Positions 3,691 through 28,139 of a stretch of 34,075 nt of DNA are shown in pieces; the first letter of the stretch is position 1, and each line of letters opens with the position of its first letter. Source of the DNA: Ruminococcus sp. (GTDB lineage: Bacteria > Bacillota > Clostridia > Oscillospirales > Acutalibacteraceae); assembly GCA_045532065.1 (NCBI GenBank), contig JAZSFG010000063.1:1-34075 (forward strand), in the 5' to 3' direction. A program made the translations under genes and the position numbers. The notes under the pieces were generated by a model. It was not told the origin of the DNA. It did no database searches and was given only the letters and a program-made list of their open reading frames with translations.

Positions 3691-3721
3691 GTTTTCATAA
3701 ATATTTTAAGGACAGATGATT

Positions 3722-4537
3722 ATGGGAAAAGTTTCATTTAAAAATATATATCCGTTTGATTTAGCCCAGACGCTTGATTGCGGACAGAGTTTCCGATGGG
3801 TAAAAAATGAGGACAACTCTTTTACCGGAGTTGTGAGAGATAAGGTAGCAACAGTGTGGTATGAAGGCACCACGCTCACAGTAGAATATAGTGGTGAAAC
3901 AGACGAGTCGCTGTGGCGCGAGTACTTCGATTTGGATTTAGATTACGCAGGCATAAAAGATGATTTGTCAAAAATGCACCCTGTTTTAGCACAGGCATCT
4001 GTGTATGCTGGAGGCATACGAATCTTAAAACAAGAGCCGTTTGAAGCGCTAATTTCTTTTATCATTTCGCAGAACAACAACATTGAAAGAATAAAAGGTA
4101 TAGTTTCGCGTCTGTGCGAAAATTTCGGCGAGTGCATTGACGGAGTTTATTACACTTTCCCGAGTGCCGAAAAATTAGCTTTATTAAGTCCTGATGATTT
4201 AGCGCCTATTCGCGCGGGTTTTCGCAACAGATACATAATAGACGCCGCACAAAAGGTCGCAAATGGTGAAATCGATTTAGAAAAGCTTCGTGATGTGGAT
4301 TATTTTGAAGCTCAAAAAGAGCTTATGAAAATCGTCGGAGTTGGTGTGAAAGTCGCTGATTGCGTTCTGCTTTATGGTTTGCACCGACTTGAGTCGTTTC
4401 CACTTGACGTGTGGATGAAGCGAGCGTTAGAAGTGCTGTTTGAGGGATATGATGGTAGCGAATTCGGTTTATATGGCGGTATCGCGCAGCAGTATATTTT
4501 TCACTACTCGCGTATGCACAAAGAGCTTTTCAATTAA
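3722..4537 (+). CDS. ogg: 8-oxoguanine DNA glycosylase (OGG-type HhH-GPD glycosylase/AP lyase)
   Basis: TLDCGQSFRW N-domain, FIISQNNNI, HhH IVGVGVKVADC with catalytic Lys, FPLDVW Asp, GIAQQYIF; alternative start 3716. Confidence 0.88.
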   Translation: MGKVSFKNIYPFDLAQTLDCGQSFRWVKNEDNSFTGVVRDKVATVWYEGTTLTVEYSGETDESLWREYFDLDLDYAGIKDDLSKMHPVLAQASVYAGGIRILKQEPFEALISFIISQNNNIERIKGIVSRLCENFGECIDGVYYTFPSAEKLALLSPDDLAPIRAGFRNRYIIDAAQKVANGEIDLEKLRDVDYFEAQKELMKIVGVGVKVADCVLLYGLHRLESFPLDVWMKRALEVLFEGYDGSEFGLYGGIAQQYIFHYSRMHKELFN

Positions 4538-4667
4538 GCGCCGAGCACCGGAGCCTTTAAAAATCAAGTGCGAGATGGGACTGCCCGTAGGACACGTAGT
4601 GTCCGCAGGGTGGTTAATCGAGAACGTGGATTTTTAAGGATTAGCATAGGTGAACGAGGCGTGATAT
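4536..4667 (+). repeat. Structured palindromic repeat / candidate ncRNA, copy A
   Basis: Long imperfect hairpin with apex ggacac-gta-gtgtcc; homologous to 20477-20610 (-) with compensatory changes. Confidence 0.75.
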
Positions 4668-4705
4668 GAAAGCGCTGAAGCTCACACACTTCGTGTCTAA
4701 AACAT

Positions 4706-4734
4706 ACATATTTTCACCTTAACTGCACAAACTA
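4706..4734 (+). promoter_or_regulatory. Possible sporulation sigma (sigG/sigE-like) promoter
   Basis: ACATA-N17-CAAACTA 16 nt upstream of ATG 4751; resembles the sigG consensus GHATR-N17/18-CATACTA. Confidence 0.3.
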
Positions 4735-4750
4735 CTGTCGGGGTGATAGT

Positions 4751-5176
4751 ATGGATGACGAAAAGTTGCTTAATCTTATTTCCAAAAACGCTGAGATGGG
4801 TGTGGTCGGAATCGATGCGGTCAAGGACTACGCGACTTCCGACAAGTTCAAAAAAGAGCTAATGAATCAGCGAGAGGAATACAACAAAATTTATAAAAGC
4901 GCTCACAATATGCTAAAAGAGCAAGGAAAATCCGTTGAACATCCGAATGCGATGGCGAAAGTATCGACTGAGATGATGAGCAGGATGAAGACGCTCGTTG
5001 ACCCGACCGACGCAAAAATCGCCGAAATGATGTTACAGGGAAGCGCGATGGGTGTCGCAAAGGTTATCCGTAACGCAAAAGATTATACCGGCGAGGATGA
5101 GTCTATCGTTGATTTAGCGAACAAACTTCAGCGTACCGAAGAGCTTAATATTGAAAACATGAAGCGCTATTTATGA
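4751..5176 (+). CDS. Conserved clostridial hypothetical protein, predicted helical bundle (ferritin-like), possibly sporulation-related
   Basis: GGGGTGA RBS, 141 aa helical pattern (KNAEMG...KIAEMMLQGSAMG...IENMKRYL), own terminator. Confidence 0.7.
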   Translation: MDDEKLLNLISKNAEMGVVGIDAVKDYATSDKFKKELMNQREEYNKIYKSAHNMLKEQGKSVEHPNAMAKVSTEMMSRMKTLVDPTDAKIAEMMLQGSAMGVAKVIRNAKDYTGEDESIVDLANKLQRTEELNIENMKRYL

Positions 5177-5180
5177 GAAT

Positions 5181-5210
5181 AAGCCTGACAGTCATTTGCT
5201 GTCAGGCTTT
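5181..5210 (+). terminator. Intrinsic terminator
   Basis: aagcctgacag-tcatttg-ctgtcaggcttt. Confidence 0.75.
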
Positions 5211-20411: not shown

Positions 20412-20447
20412 AGCGTATCAGGCAACTGATGCGCTATTTGTTTTTTT
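20412..20447 (+). terminator. Intrinsic terminator
   Basis: agcgtatcag-gcaa-ctgatgcgct followed by T-rich tract. Confidence 0.8.
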
Positions 20448-20476
20448 AAAAGGCTGCGGTGCTCAGACGTTTAATG

Positions 20477-20610
20477 ATATCACGCCTCGTAGTGCTGCGC
20501 TGTTCCTCGGAAAAAATCCTACTCGTCTAACCACCATACGGGCACTTTGTACCCTTTGGCAGTCCCGACTCGTATGTCGTTTTCTCGAGGGCTGTGCACC
20601 TCGGACGCTT
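20477..20610 (-). repeat. Structured palindromic repeat / candidate ncRNA, copy B (plus partial third copy 20442-20472)
   Basis: Reverse complement aligns end to end with 4536-4667 (shared GGGACTGCC, GGTGGTTA, ACGAGGCGTGATAT) with covarying stems. Confidence 0.75.
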
Positions 20611-20616
20611 AGATTT

Positions 20617-20630
20617 CGAACACCTGTTCG
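20617..20630. promoter_or_regulatory. LexA (Cheo/SOS) box-like palindrome
   Basis: CGAAC-ACCT-GTTCG matches Gram-positive CGAAC-N4-GTTCG. Confidence 0.55.
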
Positions 20631-20644
20631 AATAATTCGCTATT

Positions 20645-20745
20645 AGAATTAACAATTACAGACTGAAATCTTTATATCTTACAGAGAATTAACTATTACA
20701 GATTGAAAGTTTTTATTATTCCAAACGGAATTAACGATTGCTAAA
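20645..20745 (+). repeat. Three phased imperfect direct repeats (core GAATTAACnATTRC, spacing 40 and 42 bp)
   Basis: agaattaacaattacagactgaaa (20645), agaattaactattacagattgaaa (20685), ggaattaacgattgctaaactgtaa (20727). Confidence 0.7.
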
Positions 20746-20931
20746 CTGTAAGTCAGATATATAAAGGTGTAACTGGAGTTTTTTTGCTCTGTCTGTTAAA
20801 ATATAGTTGTAAGGTAAAGAGCCTTACTAATACAAAACCTTACTTTTTTAATAACTTTGAATACAAATCTTTCACAGATTGGATATACAGAACATTAAAC
20901 TTTATGGAATTTTTTGAAGGAGGATGAATTT

Positions 20932-21102
20932 ATGCGTATCAATGTAATGGGCGAAAAGGTTTCGGACAAGATTGTAAAAATGTACGTAAACGAATTGGTA
21001 AAAGCACATCCTGAAAAGAGAATTTCTACGGTGGATATCATCGTAGAGGGCGATTTTCTGAAGGTTAAGTGCAAATATGAGGAATTAGACTGCATCGCTT
21101 GA
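20932..21102 (+). CDS. 56-aa hypothetical protein
   Basis: AAGGAGG RBS 8 nt before ATG 20932; MRINVMGEKVSDKIVKMYVNELVKAHPEKRISTVDIIVEGDFLKVKCKYEELDCIA; TGTTAAAAT extended -10 at 20794-20802; terminator directly after stop. Confidence 0.75.
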   Translation: MRINVMGEKVSDKIVKMYVNELVKAHPEKRISTVDIIVEGDFLKVKCKYEELDCIA

Positions 21103-21143: not shown

Positions 21144-21172
21144 TTGACATTTTTATAAAAGAAGGCTATAAT
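21144..21172 (+). promoter_or_regulatory. Consensus sigmaA promoter
   Basis: TTGACA-N17-TATAAT directly upstream of the riboswitch. Confidence 0.85.
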
Positions 21173-21178
21173 CGTTTC

Positions 21179-21281
21179 AGTAAAGGGGAGTAGGAAGCAG
21201 CTTTGCTGCGGTATGGTTCGTCATCTCGTAGAAATACCGGACCACGCCCGAGACAGTTAGTTTTGTGACGAGACTTTTACT
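21179..21281 (+). ncRNA. yybP-ykoY (Mn2+) riboswitch aptamer
   Basis: AAAGGGGAGTAG...CGTCATCTCG...GACGAGACTTTT hallmarks; P1 agtaaag/ttttact; upstream of a cation antiporter. Confidence 0.88.
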
Positions 21282-21309
21282 GCGCAAGGCGCAGTAGGAG
21301 TCTTTTTTT
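21272..21309 (+). terminator. Riboswitch expression-platform terminator
   Basis: gacttttactgcgc-aag-gcgcagtaggagtc-ttttttt; 5' arm overlaps the aptamer P1 3' strand (ligand-ON logic). Confidence 0.8.
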
Positions 21310-21325
21310 ATATTTGGAGGTCTAT

Positions 21326-26140: not shown

Positions 26141-27811
26141 TTATTCGTACTTCTTATTCTTTGTAGCAAGCTTGATAACAACAAGTGTGCCGATTGTAAG
26201 AACAACACCGATAGGAAGAACGATGTACCAGCTCTGTACAAAACCAGCAACAATGTAGCATACAAAGGAAATAGCAGCTACTGTGATAGCGTATGGAATC
26301 TGAGTTGATACGTGGTTTAAGTGGTTACACTGAGCGCCTGCTGATGACATGATAGTTGTATCAGAGATAGGTGAGCAGTGGTCACCGCAAACAGCACCTG
26401 CAAGACAAGCTGACATGGAGATAATCATCAGCGGATTTGTAGGGTCTGCAGCGAAGAGGTATGTAACAATAGGGATGAGAATACCGAATGTACCCCATGA
26501 TGTACCTGTTGCGAAAGCAAGTACACATGCTACTAAGAAGATGATAGCAGGTAAGAAGTTCTGGAGTGCAGGAGCAGCGTTTGCCATAAGGTCGCCGACA
26601 AAGTACTTAGCACCGAGTAAGCCTGTCATATTCTTTAAAGCTGTAGCAAATGTGAGGATGAGGATAGCAGGAACCATAGCGATGAAGCCCTTTGGAACTG
26701 CTTCCATAGCCTCTTTGAAATTGATAACTTTTCTGATGAGAAGGTATGCAATAGCAATAACAAGAGCAATGAGACCGCCCCATGGAAGACCTACTGTTGC
26801 GTCTGTGTTAGCAAAAGCATCAACAAATGTAGCGCCGTCTAAGATACCGCCGTTGTAAATAAGAGCGAATACGGAAATTGCGATGAGGACAACAATCGGT
26901 AAGATAAGGTCAATAACCTTACCCTTAGGGTTAGGTGTCTCGTCTTCGCTTTCCTGTTTTTCGCCACTGAAGAGGTCACCGTACTCTTTTGCTCTGTACT
27001 CGTGCATTGCCATCTTACCGTAGTCAAAACCCATGAATGCGATAGCGATAACAAAAACAAAAGTTAAAAGTGAATAGAAGTTGTACGGAATAGCAGAAAT
27101 GAAGAGGTCAAGACCCTTGCCGTCTTCTGCATACGCTGATACAGCAGCAGCCCATGATGAAATAGGAGCAATCATACAGATTGGAGCAGCAGTAGCGTCG
27201 ATTAAGTATGCAAGCTTAGAACGTGAAATCTTGTGAGCGTCTGTAACAGGGCGCATAACCGAGCCTACTGTTAAGCAGTTGAAGTAGTCGTCGATGAAGA
27301 TAAGCACGCCTAAAACGAAAGTAGCAAGCATTGCACCAACGCGTGTTTTGATGTGCTTAGCAGCCCATTTACCGAAGGCAGCAGAGCCACCAGCTTTGTT
27401 AACAAGTGCAACTAAGATACCGAGTTCAACGAGGAATATAAAGATACCTGCTGTGTCAGAAACTGCAGAGATAAGGCCGTCGTTGATGACTGTGTCCATA
27501 GTTGTGAGGAATGAAAACTTAGAGTAAATCAAACCACCTGTAACAATACCGATGAGCAGTGAAGAGTAAACTTCTTTTGTGATGAGTGCAAGACCGATAG
27601 CGATAACCGGTGGAAGAAGAGCCCAGACTGTACCCTGAACAGCGCCTTCGCCTGCACATGTTTCGCACGCAACGTCGTCAACAACGCCGGTAGCGTGACA
27701 GTCCATACAATCAACAGTGCCGAGGTAACCGCCGGAAACTGCTGCGTATACGAGCAGGCCGATTATACAAACACTGGCGATAGCAAGGACAATCTTGTTT
27801 GTCTTTGACAT
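26141..27811 (-). CDS. NhaC-family transporter, probable lysine transporter (LysW-like)
   Basis: WALLPPVIAI, IFIDDYFN, DATAAP..APISSW, FATGTSWGTFGI, GDHCSPISDTTI; under a lysine riboswitch. Confidence 0.88.
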   Translation of the reverse strand: MSKTNKIVLAIASVCIIGLLVYAAVSGGYLGTVDCMDCHATGVVDDVACETCAGEGAVQGTVWALLPPVIAIGLALITKEVYSSLLIGIVTGGLIYSKFSFLTTMDTVINDGLISAVSDTAGIFIFLVELGILVALVNKAGGSAAFGKWAAKHIKTRVGAMLATFVLGVLIFIDDYFNCLTVGSVMRPVTDAHKISRSKLAYLIDATAAPICMIAPISSWAAAVSAYAEDGKGLDLFISAIPYNFYSLLTFVFVIAIAFMGFDYGKMAMHEYRAKEYGDLFSGEKQESEDETPNPKGKVIDLILPIVVLIAISVFALIYNGGILDGATFVDAFANTDATVGLPWGGLIALVIAIAYLLIRKVINFKEAMEAVPKGFIAMVPAILILTFATALKNMTGLLGAKYFVGDLMANAAPALQNFLPAIIFLVACVLAFATGTSWGTFGILIPIVTYLFAADPTNPLMIISMSACLAGAVCGDHCSPISDTTIMSSAGAQCNHLNHVSTQIPYAITVAAISFVCYIVAGFVQSWYIVLPIGVVLTIGTLVVIKLATKNKKYE

Positions 27812-27866: not shown

Positions 27867-27878
27867 CGTAAATCCTAC

Positions 27879-28045
27879 GAAAAATAGCACTCCACCTTTA
27901 CAGGTGACAGTGTAATACATATTTTGCATTACACCAGCCCTAACACTTTGCGAAAGCGTCAAGACTTCGGCGATGATTCCTTTCACACACGCTCAAAATT
28001 CGCGCACAGCATGTACTACTCTTAAGCACCGCGCCTCTACTTCTT
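27879..28045 (-). ncRNA. Lysine riboswitch (L-box)
   Basis: Minus strand AGAGGCGCG...AAGAGTA...GAAAGG...CGCCGAA...CTGG...AATA...ACTGTC...GGAGTGCTA; promoter TTGACG-N16-TATAAT (with TG extension) at 28058-28085. Confidence 0.92.
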
Positions 28046-28139
28046 GTTTATGTATCGATTATAGCAAAAAACCTCGTTTCGTCAAGTGTTTTGTCGCTTT
28101 TTTACTTAATTGTAACCGAAGATTATGAGATTTTAACGC

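What the first reader, a model, noticed from the sequence alone, without database searches (positions are those of the whole stretch)
4536..4667. Dispersed ~133-nt structured element present twice with compensatory base changes (copy A; partner 20477-20610 -)
Seen: A = aagcg-ccgagCACC..agcc..cgagATgggactgccC..GGACACgtaGTGTCC..GggtggttaATcgag..GGTGaacgaggcgtgatat; B (reverse complement) = aagcgtccgagGTGC..agcc..cgagTCgggactgccA..GGGTACaaaGTGCCC..TggtggttaGAcgag..GCACtacgaggcgtgatat. Loops and ends are conserved while paired arms change together (CACC/GGTG to GTGC/GCAC; AT/AT to TC/GA; C-G to A-T; apical stem). The conserved gactgcc/ggtggtt helix has three G-U pairs only in this orientation. Inference: selection acts on a single-stranded RNA or ssDNA fold, i.e. 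a structured ncRNA family or a REP-like element processed by a HUH transposase. Copy A overlaps the ogg stop codon and no separate terminator is evident there.
Basis: partly seen in the sequence, partly recalled or inferred. Interest (0 to 1): 0.78.

Follow-up and report, generated by a model that had tools for sequence, protein, structure and literature searches.

The report
Arm-swapping hairpin repeat of Ruminococcus
The two look-alike stretches are copies of a gene-less, roughly 130-base hairpin repeat scattered through gut Ruminococcus genomes (including R. bromii), which sits at gene and RNA boundaries, comes and goes between relatives and swaps matched parts between copies, so it is likely a small mobile element moved as a folded single strand by an enzyme not yet found, rather than an RNA gene.

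Summary
Observation confirmed: both copies and every paired change are there, and only the stated strand folds well (RNA z -5.5 and -5.7). They are 2 of 10 full copies in this genome. The family occurs in 71 of 222 genomes of the genus, including Ruminococcus bromii, and in no other genus searched. It has no Rfam match. Covariation is strong: 20 of 28 pairs, 67 copies. Copies form head-to-tail mosaic arrays, often just after stop codons, terminators, tRNA ends or promoters. They are present or absent at orthologous sites, and interiors are swapped between sister species while flanks stay. One 4-bp stem has 12 variants, paired in 145 of 148 copies, yet barely follows the tree of the interior. 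Best reading: a non-autonomous element that pops in and out as a folded single strand, DNA slightly more likely than RNA. No RAYT, IS200, IS110 or reverse transcriptase tracks it. New variant of the REP/BIME/bcr1 kind of repeat.

The parts
4538..4666 (+). Copy A, full rod unit (subtype with GGGACTGCC/GGTGGTT central helix; C-GTA-G apical triloop)
   Evidence: (131 bits)
4535..4537 (+). TAA stop of ogg, which is also the upstream triplet of the element (TAA class, matching the GATA tail)
4667..4687 (+). Junction spacer and decayed second 5' arm after copy A; absent with the unit from the empty site of sister species G023
3716..4537 (+). ogg (8-oxoguanine glycosylase), the upstream host gene; not part of the element
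4751..5176 (+). DUF2383-like gene (weak Pfam match, E 3e-4), the downstream host gene; spacer is 214 nt here and about 50 nt at empty sites
20478..20608 (-). Copy B, full rod unit (C-AAA-G apical triloop), antisense to both neighbouring genes
   Evidence: (124.5 bits)
20444..20477 (-). Junction spacer and decayed second 5' arm after copy B
20617..20630 (.). Palindrome CGAAC-N4-GTTCG 8 nt upstream of copy B. Resembles a Firmicutes LexA box (label recalled); kept at both filled and empty orthologous sites, so it is host sequence

Best explanation
This is a genus-wide family of non-coding, 126-148-base rod-folding repeats that is gained, lost, tandemly multiplied and exchanged between chromosomal sites, and it is likely moved as a folded single strand, probably a unit-length circle, by an enzyme that remains unidentified. 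Shown: dispersal, covariation, head-to-tail arrays, empty versus filled sites, strain-level copy-number variation, interior swaps at fixed sites, and joint exchange of the two strands of one stem. Inferred: a unit would be released between two junctions of an array as a circle in which the two arms are neighbours. It would integrate by strand exchange at a 3-5-base core in or just before the outermost helix, preferring existing copies, which builds arrays and leaves a short 5' arm behind the last unit. A second exchange in the 3' arm would remove the old body and leave the site's own ends around a new interior. New sites would be colonised where a similar core lies in tolerant sequence: right after a stop codon, terminator, tRNA end or promoter. 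The folded molecule is judged more likely DNA (about 55%) than RNA (about 45%).
For: Family: 10 full copies in G000; 55 and 34 of 222 genus genomes with two tail patterns, union 71; model R1 finds 0 of 149 genomes of other genera in the family and 0 of 150 in the order sample. Fold: 94.6% of cells paired, 20 of 28 pairs with two-sided change, 0 of 500 shuffles as high, slid controls 25-45%. Mobility: of 16 genomes with the same ogg-DUF2383 gene order, 3 carry a rod, each a different subtype starting right after TAA, and 13 do not, including the closest relative. The B site is filled in 2 of 5 relatives and empty in 3. Four sites are filled in G023 and rod-free in G000. R. bromii-type contigs show 1-2 units at the aspartokinase site and at the rarA promoter, and filled, collapsed and empty alleles in the rRNA spacer. 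Exchange: at 4 shared sites G000 and G023 keep flanks, junction and site-private ends but differ in interior subtype. The 4-bp stem has 12 left-arm variants, is paired in 145 of 148 parsed units, and needs 47 changes on the interior tree (minimum 10, shuffled 62.5). Ends: the upstream triplet covaries with the 3' tail (GAA with GACA 36 of 37; TAA with GATA 56 of 61; 117 sites). Flank and junction share longer suffixes than a within-class permutation (0 of 5000; 55 arrays). At the tRNA-Ala site an AGC core lies on both sides of the insert. DNA hint: 53 of 72 apical loops are triloops, 48 closed by C-G, against 48 of 331 in terminator-like hairpins; GNA and GNNA loops closed by C-G are much more stable in DNA than in RNA (PMC13037366, passages). 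An excision-circle-reinsertion model is published for BIMEs (PMC3333891, passages).
Against: No circle, cleavage or enzyme was observed. No Y1, RAYT, IS110 or RT gene tracks the element, and no open reading frame of a mobile type is bracketed by it. Orientation follows transcription (49 sense to both neighbours against 9 antisense), which an RNA route explains as well. R. bromii-type copies mostly end in GNRA tetraloops (38 of 139 short units once many strains are included). Only 19 of 53 triloops are GNA. The replichore test was inconclusive (31 lead, 53 lag, 14 ambiguous; biased by codon usage), and A and B face opposite ways on a contig whose cumulative GC skew rises almost throughout. Most empty/filled pairs are between species about 10-15% diverged, so the crossover point rests mainly on one within-species pair, which may be affected by assembly of repeated rRNA operons. 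Collapsed alleles show that plain hairpin deletion also shapes the sites. Sites in related genomes are not independent, so the P values overstate.
Confidence: 0.5

Rival explanations
1. The working molecule is RNA: copies are co-transcribed at RNA ends, the rod is processed or circularised, copied by a reverse transcriptase in trans and reinserted. Once inserted it may protect mRNA or rRNA ends.
For: Sense bias 49 to 9. 49 of 117 sites start 0-7 nt after a same-strand stop codon. Others follow terminators, SAM and T-box leaders, tRNA CCA ends inside rRNA operons and a promoter -10 box. RNA folding gives the larger strand asymmetry. GNRA loops occur in R. bromii-type copies.
Against: Triloops dominate outside R. 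bromii. No RT was found in 31 of 60 genomes searched, among them copy-rich G063, G085, G086 and G203, and 0 of 31 RT loci have a rod arm nearby. Copy B and 8 other sites are antisense to both neighbours. There is no ribozyme or intron match in Rfam.
Confidence: 0.2
2. The copies are relics of an element whose transposase is gone. They are now reshaped only by host processes: slippage makes arrays and deletions, gene conversion swaps interiors, and template switching between arms makes paired changes without selection.
For: Many sites are shared by sister species, and some across the genus. Deletion scars and chimeras exist. No driver gene is found in a marker-complete genome with 15 copies.
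Against: Template switching should erase the mismatched loops (general knowledge), yet the tandem G-A, GNA/GNA and 4-nt bulge motifs are nearly invariant. Only 3 of 148 units have a mismatched 4-bp stem despite free reassortment. Three different subtypes at the ogg stop with an empty nearest relative suggest repeated arrival.
Confidence: 0.2
3. The rods are an unusual REPIN type mobilised by the RAYT (Y1 HUH) transposases present in the genus.
For: RAYT-like genes are present in many rod-positive genomes. Rods and GTAG REPs use the same intergenic spots. One RAYT gene lies next to a full rod (L220).
Against: These RAYT genes mostly carry GTAG REPs inside or beside them. Only 4 of 84 Y1/RAYT loci show a rod arm. 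RAYTs occur in genomes with no tail-pattern match (G012, G120, G235) and are not found in G063, G135 (only a weak partial Y1 match) or G023. The rods have no GTAG foot.
Confidence: 0.05
4. Each copy is a trans-acting structured non-coding RNA gene kept for a cellular function.
For: Strong covariation; rod-only fold on one strand.
Against: Most genus genomes lack the tail motifs (151 of 222). Orthologous sites are often empty. Copy number varies among strains, interiors are interchangeable, and there is no consistent promoter-terminator frame.
Confidence: 0.05

Closest known systems
REP / BIME / REPIN with TnpA(REP) (RAYT) (PMC3333891, PMC6006769, PMC3733652; passages read)
   Same: Intergenic, often just downstream of genes; mosaic arrays with variable copy number at a locus; one-strand fold; a published model of excision as a single-stranded circle and reinsertion.
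   Different: The unit is 126-148 nt, not 20-65. There is no GTAG/GTGG or CGTC foot. Arrays are mostly head-to-tail, not inverted doublets. There are 10-15 copies per genome, not hundreds, and no flanked RAYT gene.
bcr1 of the Bacillus cereus group (via review PMC3184786; passages read)
   Same: Firmicutes, clade-restricted, about 155 nt, patchy between relatives, compensatory base changes, no dedicated enzyme named in the passages read.
   Different: bcr1 is cruciform with a fixed 5-bp direct repeat. This is an unbranched rod with conserved G-A-rich loops, no fixed duplication, arrays, and paired-arm exchange.
ERIC/IRU, RUP, Correia (MITE-like) and pneumococcal BOX elements (named in PMC3184786 passages; details recalled)
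   Same: Size of about 100-150 nt, intergenic, folding; BOX forms modular tandem arrays.
   Different: No true terminal inverted repeat: the outer helix is 5 bp with a G-T pair and is flanked by G-A mismatches. No fixed TA duplication was seen.
IS200/IS605 non-autonomous derivatives (PMC6006769 passages; rest recalled)
   Same: Precise 5' end next to a short A/T-rich target; a tail motif that covaries with the target-side triplet, as a guide might.
   Different: One long rod rather than two end hairpins. The IS200-type end hairpins seen in this genome look unrelated (by eye). No replichore rule was shown.
Group IIC introns (recalled)
   Same: A minority of copies read GTGCG...AT and follow terminators.
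   Different: No intron domain match in Rfam, no ORF, 130 nt only; most copies start AAGCG or AAGAG.

Membership tests
REP/REPIN/BIME | 20-65-nt hairpin with GTAG/GTGG (or CGTC) tetranucleotide foot | tested here: not met
   Units are 126-148 nt; alignment A2 shows no such foot; definition from PMC6006769 and PMC3733652 passages
REP/REPIN/BIME | A tnpA(REP)/RAYT gene flanked by the repeat | tested here: not met
   4 of 84 Y1/RAYT loci have any rod arm; RAYTs mostly carry GTAG REPs; none in G063
REP/REPIN/BIME | Inverted doublets as the basic unit | tested here: not met
   Arrays are mostly head-to-tail; inverted pairs are occasional (C143, G063:C75)
REP/REPIN/BIME | Intergenic mosaic clusters with variable copy number at a locus | tested here: met
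REP/REPIN/BIME | Cleavage and strand transfer by the cognate HUH enzyme on ssDNA | not testable with these tools
   Needs biochemistry
MITE-like repeats (bcr1, ERIC, RUP, Correia) | Terminal inverted repeats | tested here: not met
   Outer helix of 5 pairs includes an almost invariant G-U/G-T pair (66 of 67)
MITE-like repeats (bcr1, ERIC, RUP, Correia) | Fixed-length target-site duplication | tested here: inconclusive
   Flank/junction shared suffix is 0-9 nt, above permutation but not fixed; 3-nt cores on both sides at a few empty/filled pairs
MITE-like repeats (bcr1, ERIC, RUP, Correia) | Patchy occupancy between relatives and compensatory changes | tested here: met
IS200/IS605 derivative | Active strand on the lagging-strand template | tested here: inconclusive
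   31 lead, 53 lag, 14 ambiguous with a codon-biased estimator; A and B on opposite strands of one contig
IS200/IS605 derivative | Ends related to those of a resident tnpA element | tested here: not met
   (by eye)
Described Rfam RNA family (incl. Clostridiales motifs, ribozymes, group II intron) | Covariance-model match | tested here: not met
   No match over any copy at E<=1 (window), E<=0.5 (20 loci), E<=0.1 (10 loci)
Integron attC cassette site | RYYYAAC/GTTRRRY boxes, cassette ORFs, integrase | not tested
   Considered from recall only; no cassette ORFs between adjacent units

The most novel reading that the evidence does not exclude
The unit is a minimal (about 135-nt) circular single-stranded replicator, DNA or viroid-like RNA, that needs no gene of its own. 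It folds into a closed rod, is copied and recombined by housekeeping enzymes, homes to the boundaries of transcribed units, and evolves by exchanging base-paired modules between copies, with its 3' tail reading the target triplet.
Probability: 0.15. Interest if true: 0.85.

Novelty: new variant of a known kind. Interest (0 to 1): 0.52.

Why it matters
How enzyme-less structured repeats such as bcr1, CGTC REPs and ERIC spread and keep their fold is an open question. This family makes it testable in a culturable human-gut keystone species (R. bromii), with few copies, polymorphic alleles (including inside rRNA operons and at the rarA promoter), and a clear signature of paired-arm exchange. It also warns that excellent covariation can mark a mobile repeat rather than an RNA gene. 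Earlier notes of this scan list several families of similar style in other bacteria, so the kind is recurrent, which tempers the surprise.

Tried and rejected
Rfam: no match over any copy. tRNA/tmRNA: none in the window. Sequencing runs: none was listed for window 3700-5200, which says nothing about expression. Viral contigs: 0 and 1 hit (the one hit is 62% GC with three hairpins). Plasmids and phages: no match. Driver search: Pfam Y1_Tnp in own genome (one broken IS200-type gene) and in 50 + 5 genomes; RAYT profile in own genome (none) and 40 genomes; RVT_1 in own genome and 60 genomes; GIY-YIG in own genome (one hit in a 619-aa frame, not followed); IS110 in 5 genomes. Neighbouring-gene clustering gave housekeeping genes only, and ORFs bracketed by element parts showed none of a rod-linked mobile type. 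Replichore orientation was inconclusive. A universal fixed target-site duplication was not seen. Group IIC intron, bridge RNA, attC and SECIS-like readings were considered from recall and dropped: no intron domain, invariant rather than variable loops, no cassette ORFs, and TAA rather than TGA stops. ViennaRNA's DNA set printed no triloop bonuses, so loop energetics could not separate DNA from RNA. R-scape is not available. Literature: searches found no description. In PMC8040213 the 12 'bromii' places of supplementary file 2 are candidates of 32-52 nt; its sequence archives (files 7, 8, and three oversized files) could not be read, so a fragment of this element may be among them.

Full report
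1. Observation. On the stated strands each folds as one unbranched rod (RNA z -5.5 and -5.7; opposite strands -2.2 and -0.9; DNA parameters give the same ranking more weakly). Rfam has no match over either copy. The unit proper runs 4538-4666 (+) and 20478-20608 (-), each followed by a short spacer and a decayed second 5' arm. Copy A begins on the base after the TAA of ogg. Copy B lies antisense to both neighbours, 8 nt from a palindrome resembling a LexA box (label recalled).

2. A family, not a pair. A covariance model built from 67 units finds 10 full copies and one hybrid in this genome. Two exact tail patterns match 55 and 34 of 222 genomes of the genus, 71 together. The reversed-pattern control matched 0 genomes and 6, so a few single hits may be chance. 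The model finds nothing in 149 genomes of other genera of the family or in 150 genomes of the order (one or a few per genus, strict filters). A metagenome scan returned many human-gut contigs; the rarA protein beside one copy is named Ruminococcus bromii, and genus genome G064 matches that gene at 99%. The window's organism is therefore in the genus that holds R. bromii. Nothing credible was found in phage, plasmid or viral collections.

3. Anatomy. All units share an outer frame: a 5-bp helix, a tandem G-A pair, a 2-nt bulge, a variable 4-bp stem, a GNA/GNA (or second tandem G-A) loop, two G-C pairs and a 4-nt bulge. Inside lies one of several interior subtypes, giving units of 126-148 nt. 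On 67 units 94.6% of cells pair, 20 of 28 pairs show two-sided changes, no shuffle of 500 reaches this, and slid controls give 25-45% (this is not R-scape, and relatedness inflates it). The second base of the unit and its partner change together too (C-G 120, A-T 59, T-A 5 of 191). The three bases before the unit covary with the 3' tail (GAA with GACA in 36 of 37 sites, TAA with GATA in 56 of 61), in a way that keeps one Watson-Crick pair beyond a G-A-rich mismatch.

4. Where it sits. Of 117 distinct first-unit sites, 49 start 0-7 nt after a same-strand stop codon, 23 of them at 0 (crude ORF calls; orthologous sites in different species are counted separately). Others follow terminator T-tracts, including those of SAM and T-box leaders, tRNA CCA ends in the rRNA spacer, the -10 box of the rarA promoter, or parS-like palindromes (label recalled). 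Where both neighbours point the same way, the folding strand is sense in 49 and antisense in 9. Neighbours are housekeeping genes.

5. It moves and exchanges. Among 16 genomes with the ogg-DUF2383 order, 3 have a rod (three subtypes) and 13 do not, including the nearest relative G023; three of the 13 have a GTAG-type REP there. The B site is filled in G023 (as a B/A chimera) and G018, and empty in G098, G100 and G101. Of 13 G023 sites compared with G000, four are rod-free in G000, one is shared unchanged, three are decayed in one or both, one could not be placed, and four keep flanks, junction and trailing arm but differ in interior. At two of these four, site-private end variants persist in both species, so the exchange points lie inside the outer helix. 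R. bromii-type contigs show one or two full units at the aspartokinase stop and at the rarA promoter, and filled, collapsed and empty rRNA-spacer alleles. At the tRNA-Ala site the insert sits inside a host hairpin with AGC on both sides. The rarA promoter of G173, 95% identical in the gene, is empty. The 4-bp stem has 12 left-arm variants and is fully paired in 145 of 148 parsed units (43 of 191 not parsed), yet it needs 47 changes on the tree of 92 interiors (minimum 10, shuffled mean 62.5; short alignment, many forks open). Its two strands, about 110 nt apart, thus travel together and largely apart from what lies between them.

6. Mechanism. The simplest account, which is inferred, is pop-in/pop-out of a unit-length single-stranded circle in which the two arms adjoin across the junction. 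Integration at a short core, preferably an existing copy, would build arrays and leave a trailing arm. A second exchange in the other arm would give interior swaps, and slippage would give collapsed alleles. A similar excision-circle model was proposed for BIMEs (PMC3333891, passages). For DNA: 53 of 72 apical loops are triloops, 48 closed by C-G, against 48 of 331 in terminator-like hairpins, and GNA/GNNA loops are far more stable in DNA than RNA (PMC13037366, passages). The link of tandem G-A, GNA/GNA and AAA-loop motifs to DNA is recalled, not checked. For RNA: sense bias, location at RNA ends, and GNRA loops in R. bromii-type copies. Replichore orientation was inconclusive. No driver was found. 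The RAYT-like genes mostly carry GTAG REPs, as the 'inserted in tnpAREP' subclass of PMC6006769 does (passages). Rod arms occur at 4 of 84 Y1/RAYT loci, 0 of 31 RT loci and 0 of 1 IS110 locus. G063, with 15 copies and 100% marker completeness (100 contigs, so repeats or mobile genes may be missing), has none of these genes.

7. Known kinds. It behaves like BIME arrays and bcr1 but fails their defining features: no GTAG/CGTC foot, no flanked RAYT, no terminal inverted repeat, no fixed duplication. Papers seen: passages of PMC6006769, PMC3733652, PMC3184786, PMC3333891, PMC13037366 and PMC10589994 (unrelated CRISPR repeat); supplementary table rows of PMC8040213, whose sequence archives were unreadable; listings only for the rest. 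None of these describes the family. Gene labels other than ogg, DUF2383, rarA, aspartokinase and the Rfam hits are my recognition from sequence.

8. Verdict. Real, strongly covarying, not found in the sources searched, and best read as a non-autonomous structured repeat with paired-module exchange: a new variant of a known kind. Interest 0.52; the most novel reading (a gene-less circular replicator using host enzymes) has probability about 0.15.

Noticed in passing
window 27877-28047 (-): Lysine riboswitch (120 bits) upstream of the 556-aa transporter gene at 26141-27811.
   Followed up: no
window 21144-21313 (+): A perfect TTGACA-17-TATAAT promoter, a structured leader and a terminator before a Na/Ca exchanger gene. 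The leader recalls the yybP-ykoY manganese riboswitch (recalled), but Rfam gave no such hit at E<=5.
   Followed up: partly
window 20617-20930: Non-coding stretch conserved in five relatives with a LexA-box-like palindrome, the only such exact motif in the assembly, and two 17-nt direct repeats at 20646 and 20686. It precedes a 56-aa ORF with no Pfam match (20932-21102).
   Followed up: partly
L253 (G000:C66:6810-7907): Stand-alone 365-aa retron-like reverse transcriptase (YCDD and VTG motifs; label recalled) with about 300 nt of non-coding DNA upstream and no obvious effector gene; similar-sized RTs in G023, G098, G100, G009.
   Followed up: partly
L203-L223: RAYT-like genes of the genus mostly carry two GTAG-type REPs inside their own coding sequence, several copies per genome.
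   Followed up: partly
G000 C10:15215, C83:8352, C108:263, C109:4127, C182; L010, L083, L101-L103: A second repeat type with a CTCCTCTCCCC motif and a C-G-closed triloop hairpin joins rods at a GATATC palindrome or lies inside a rod arm.
   Followed up: partly
L327, L328, L335, L415: R. bromii-type 16S-23S spacers are polymorphic for this element after tRNA-Ala and tRNA-Ile, which could affect spacer typing.
   Followed up: partly
L347: Contig joins the aspartokinase-site flank to the rRNA-spacer flank through one rod: an assembly chimera or a true recombination between copies.
   Followed up: no
L034-L037, L039, L040: Six Binatia genomes matched the first end-to-end pattern at the same 118-nt span; probably a conserved coding stretch, not examined.
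   Followed up: no
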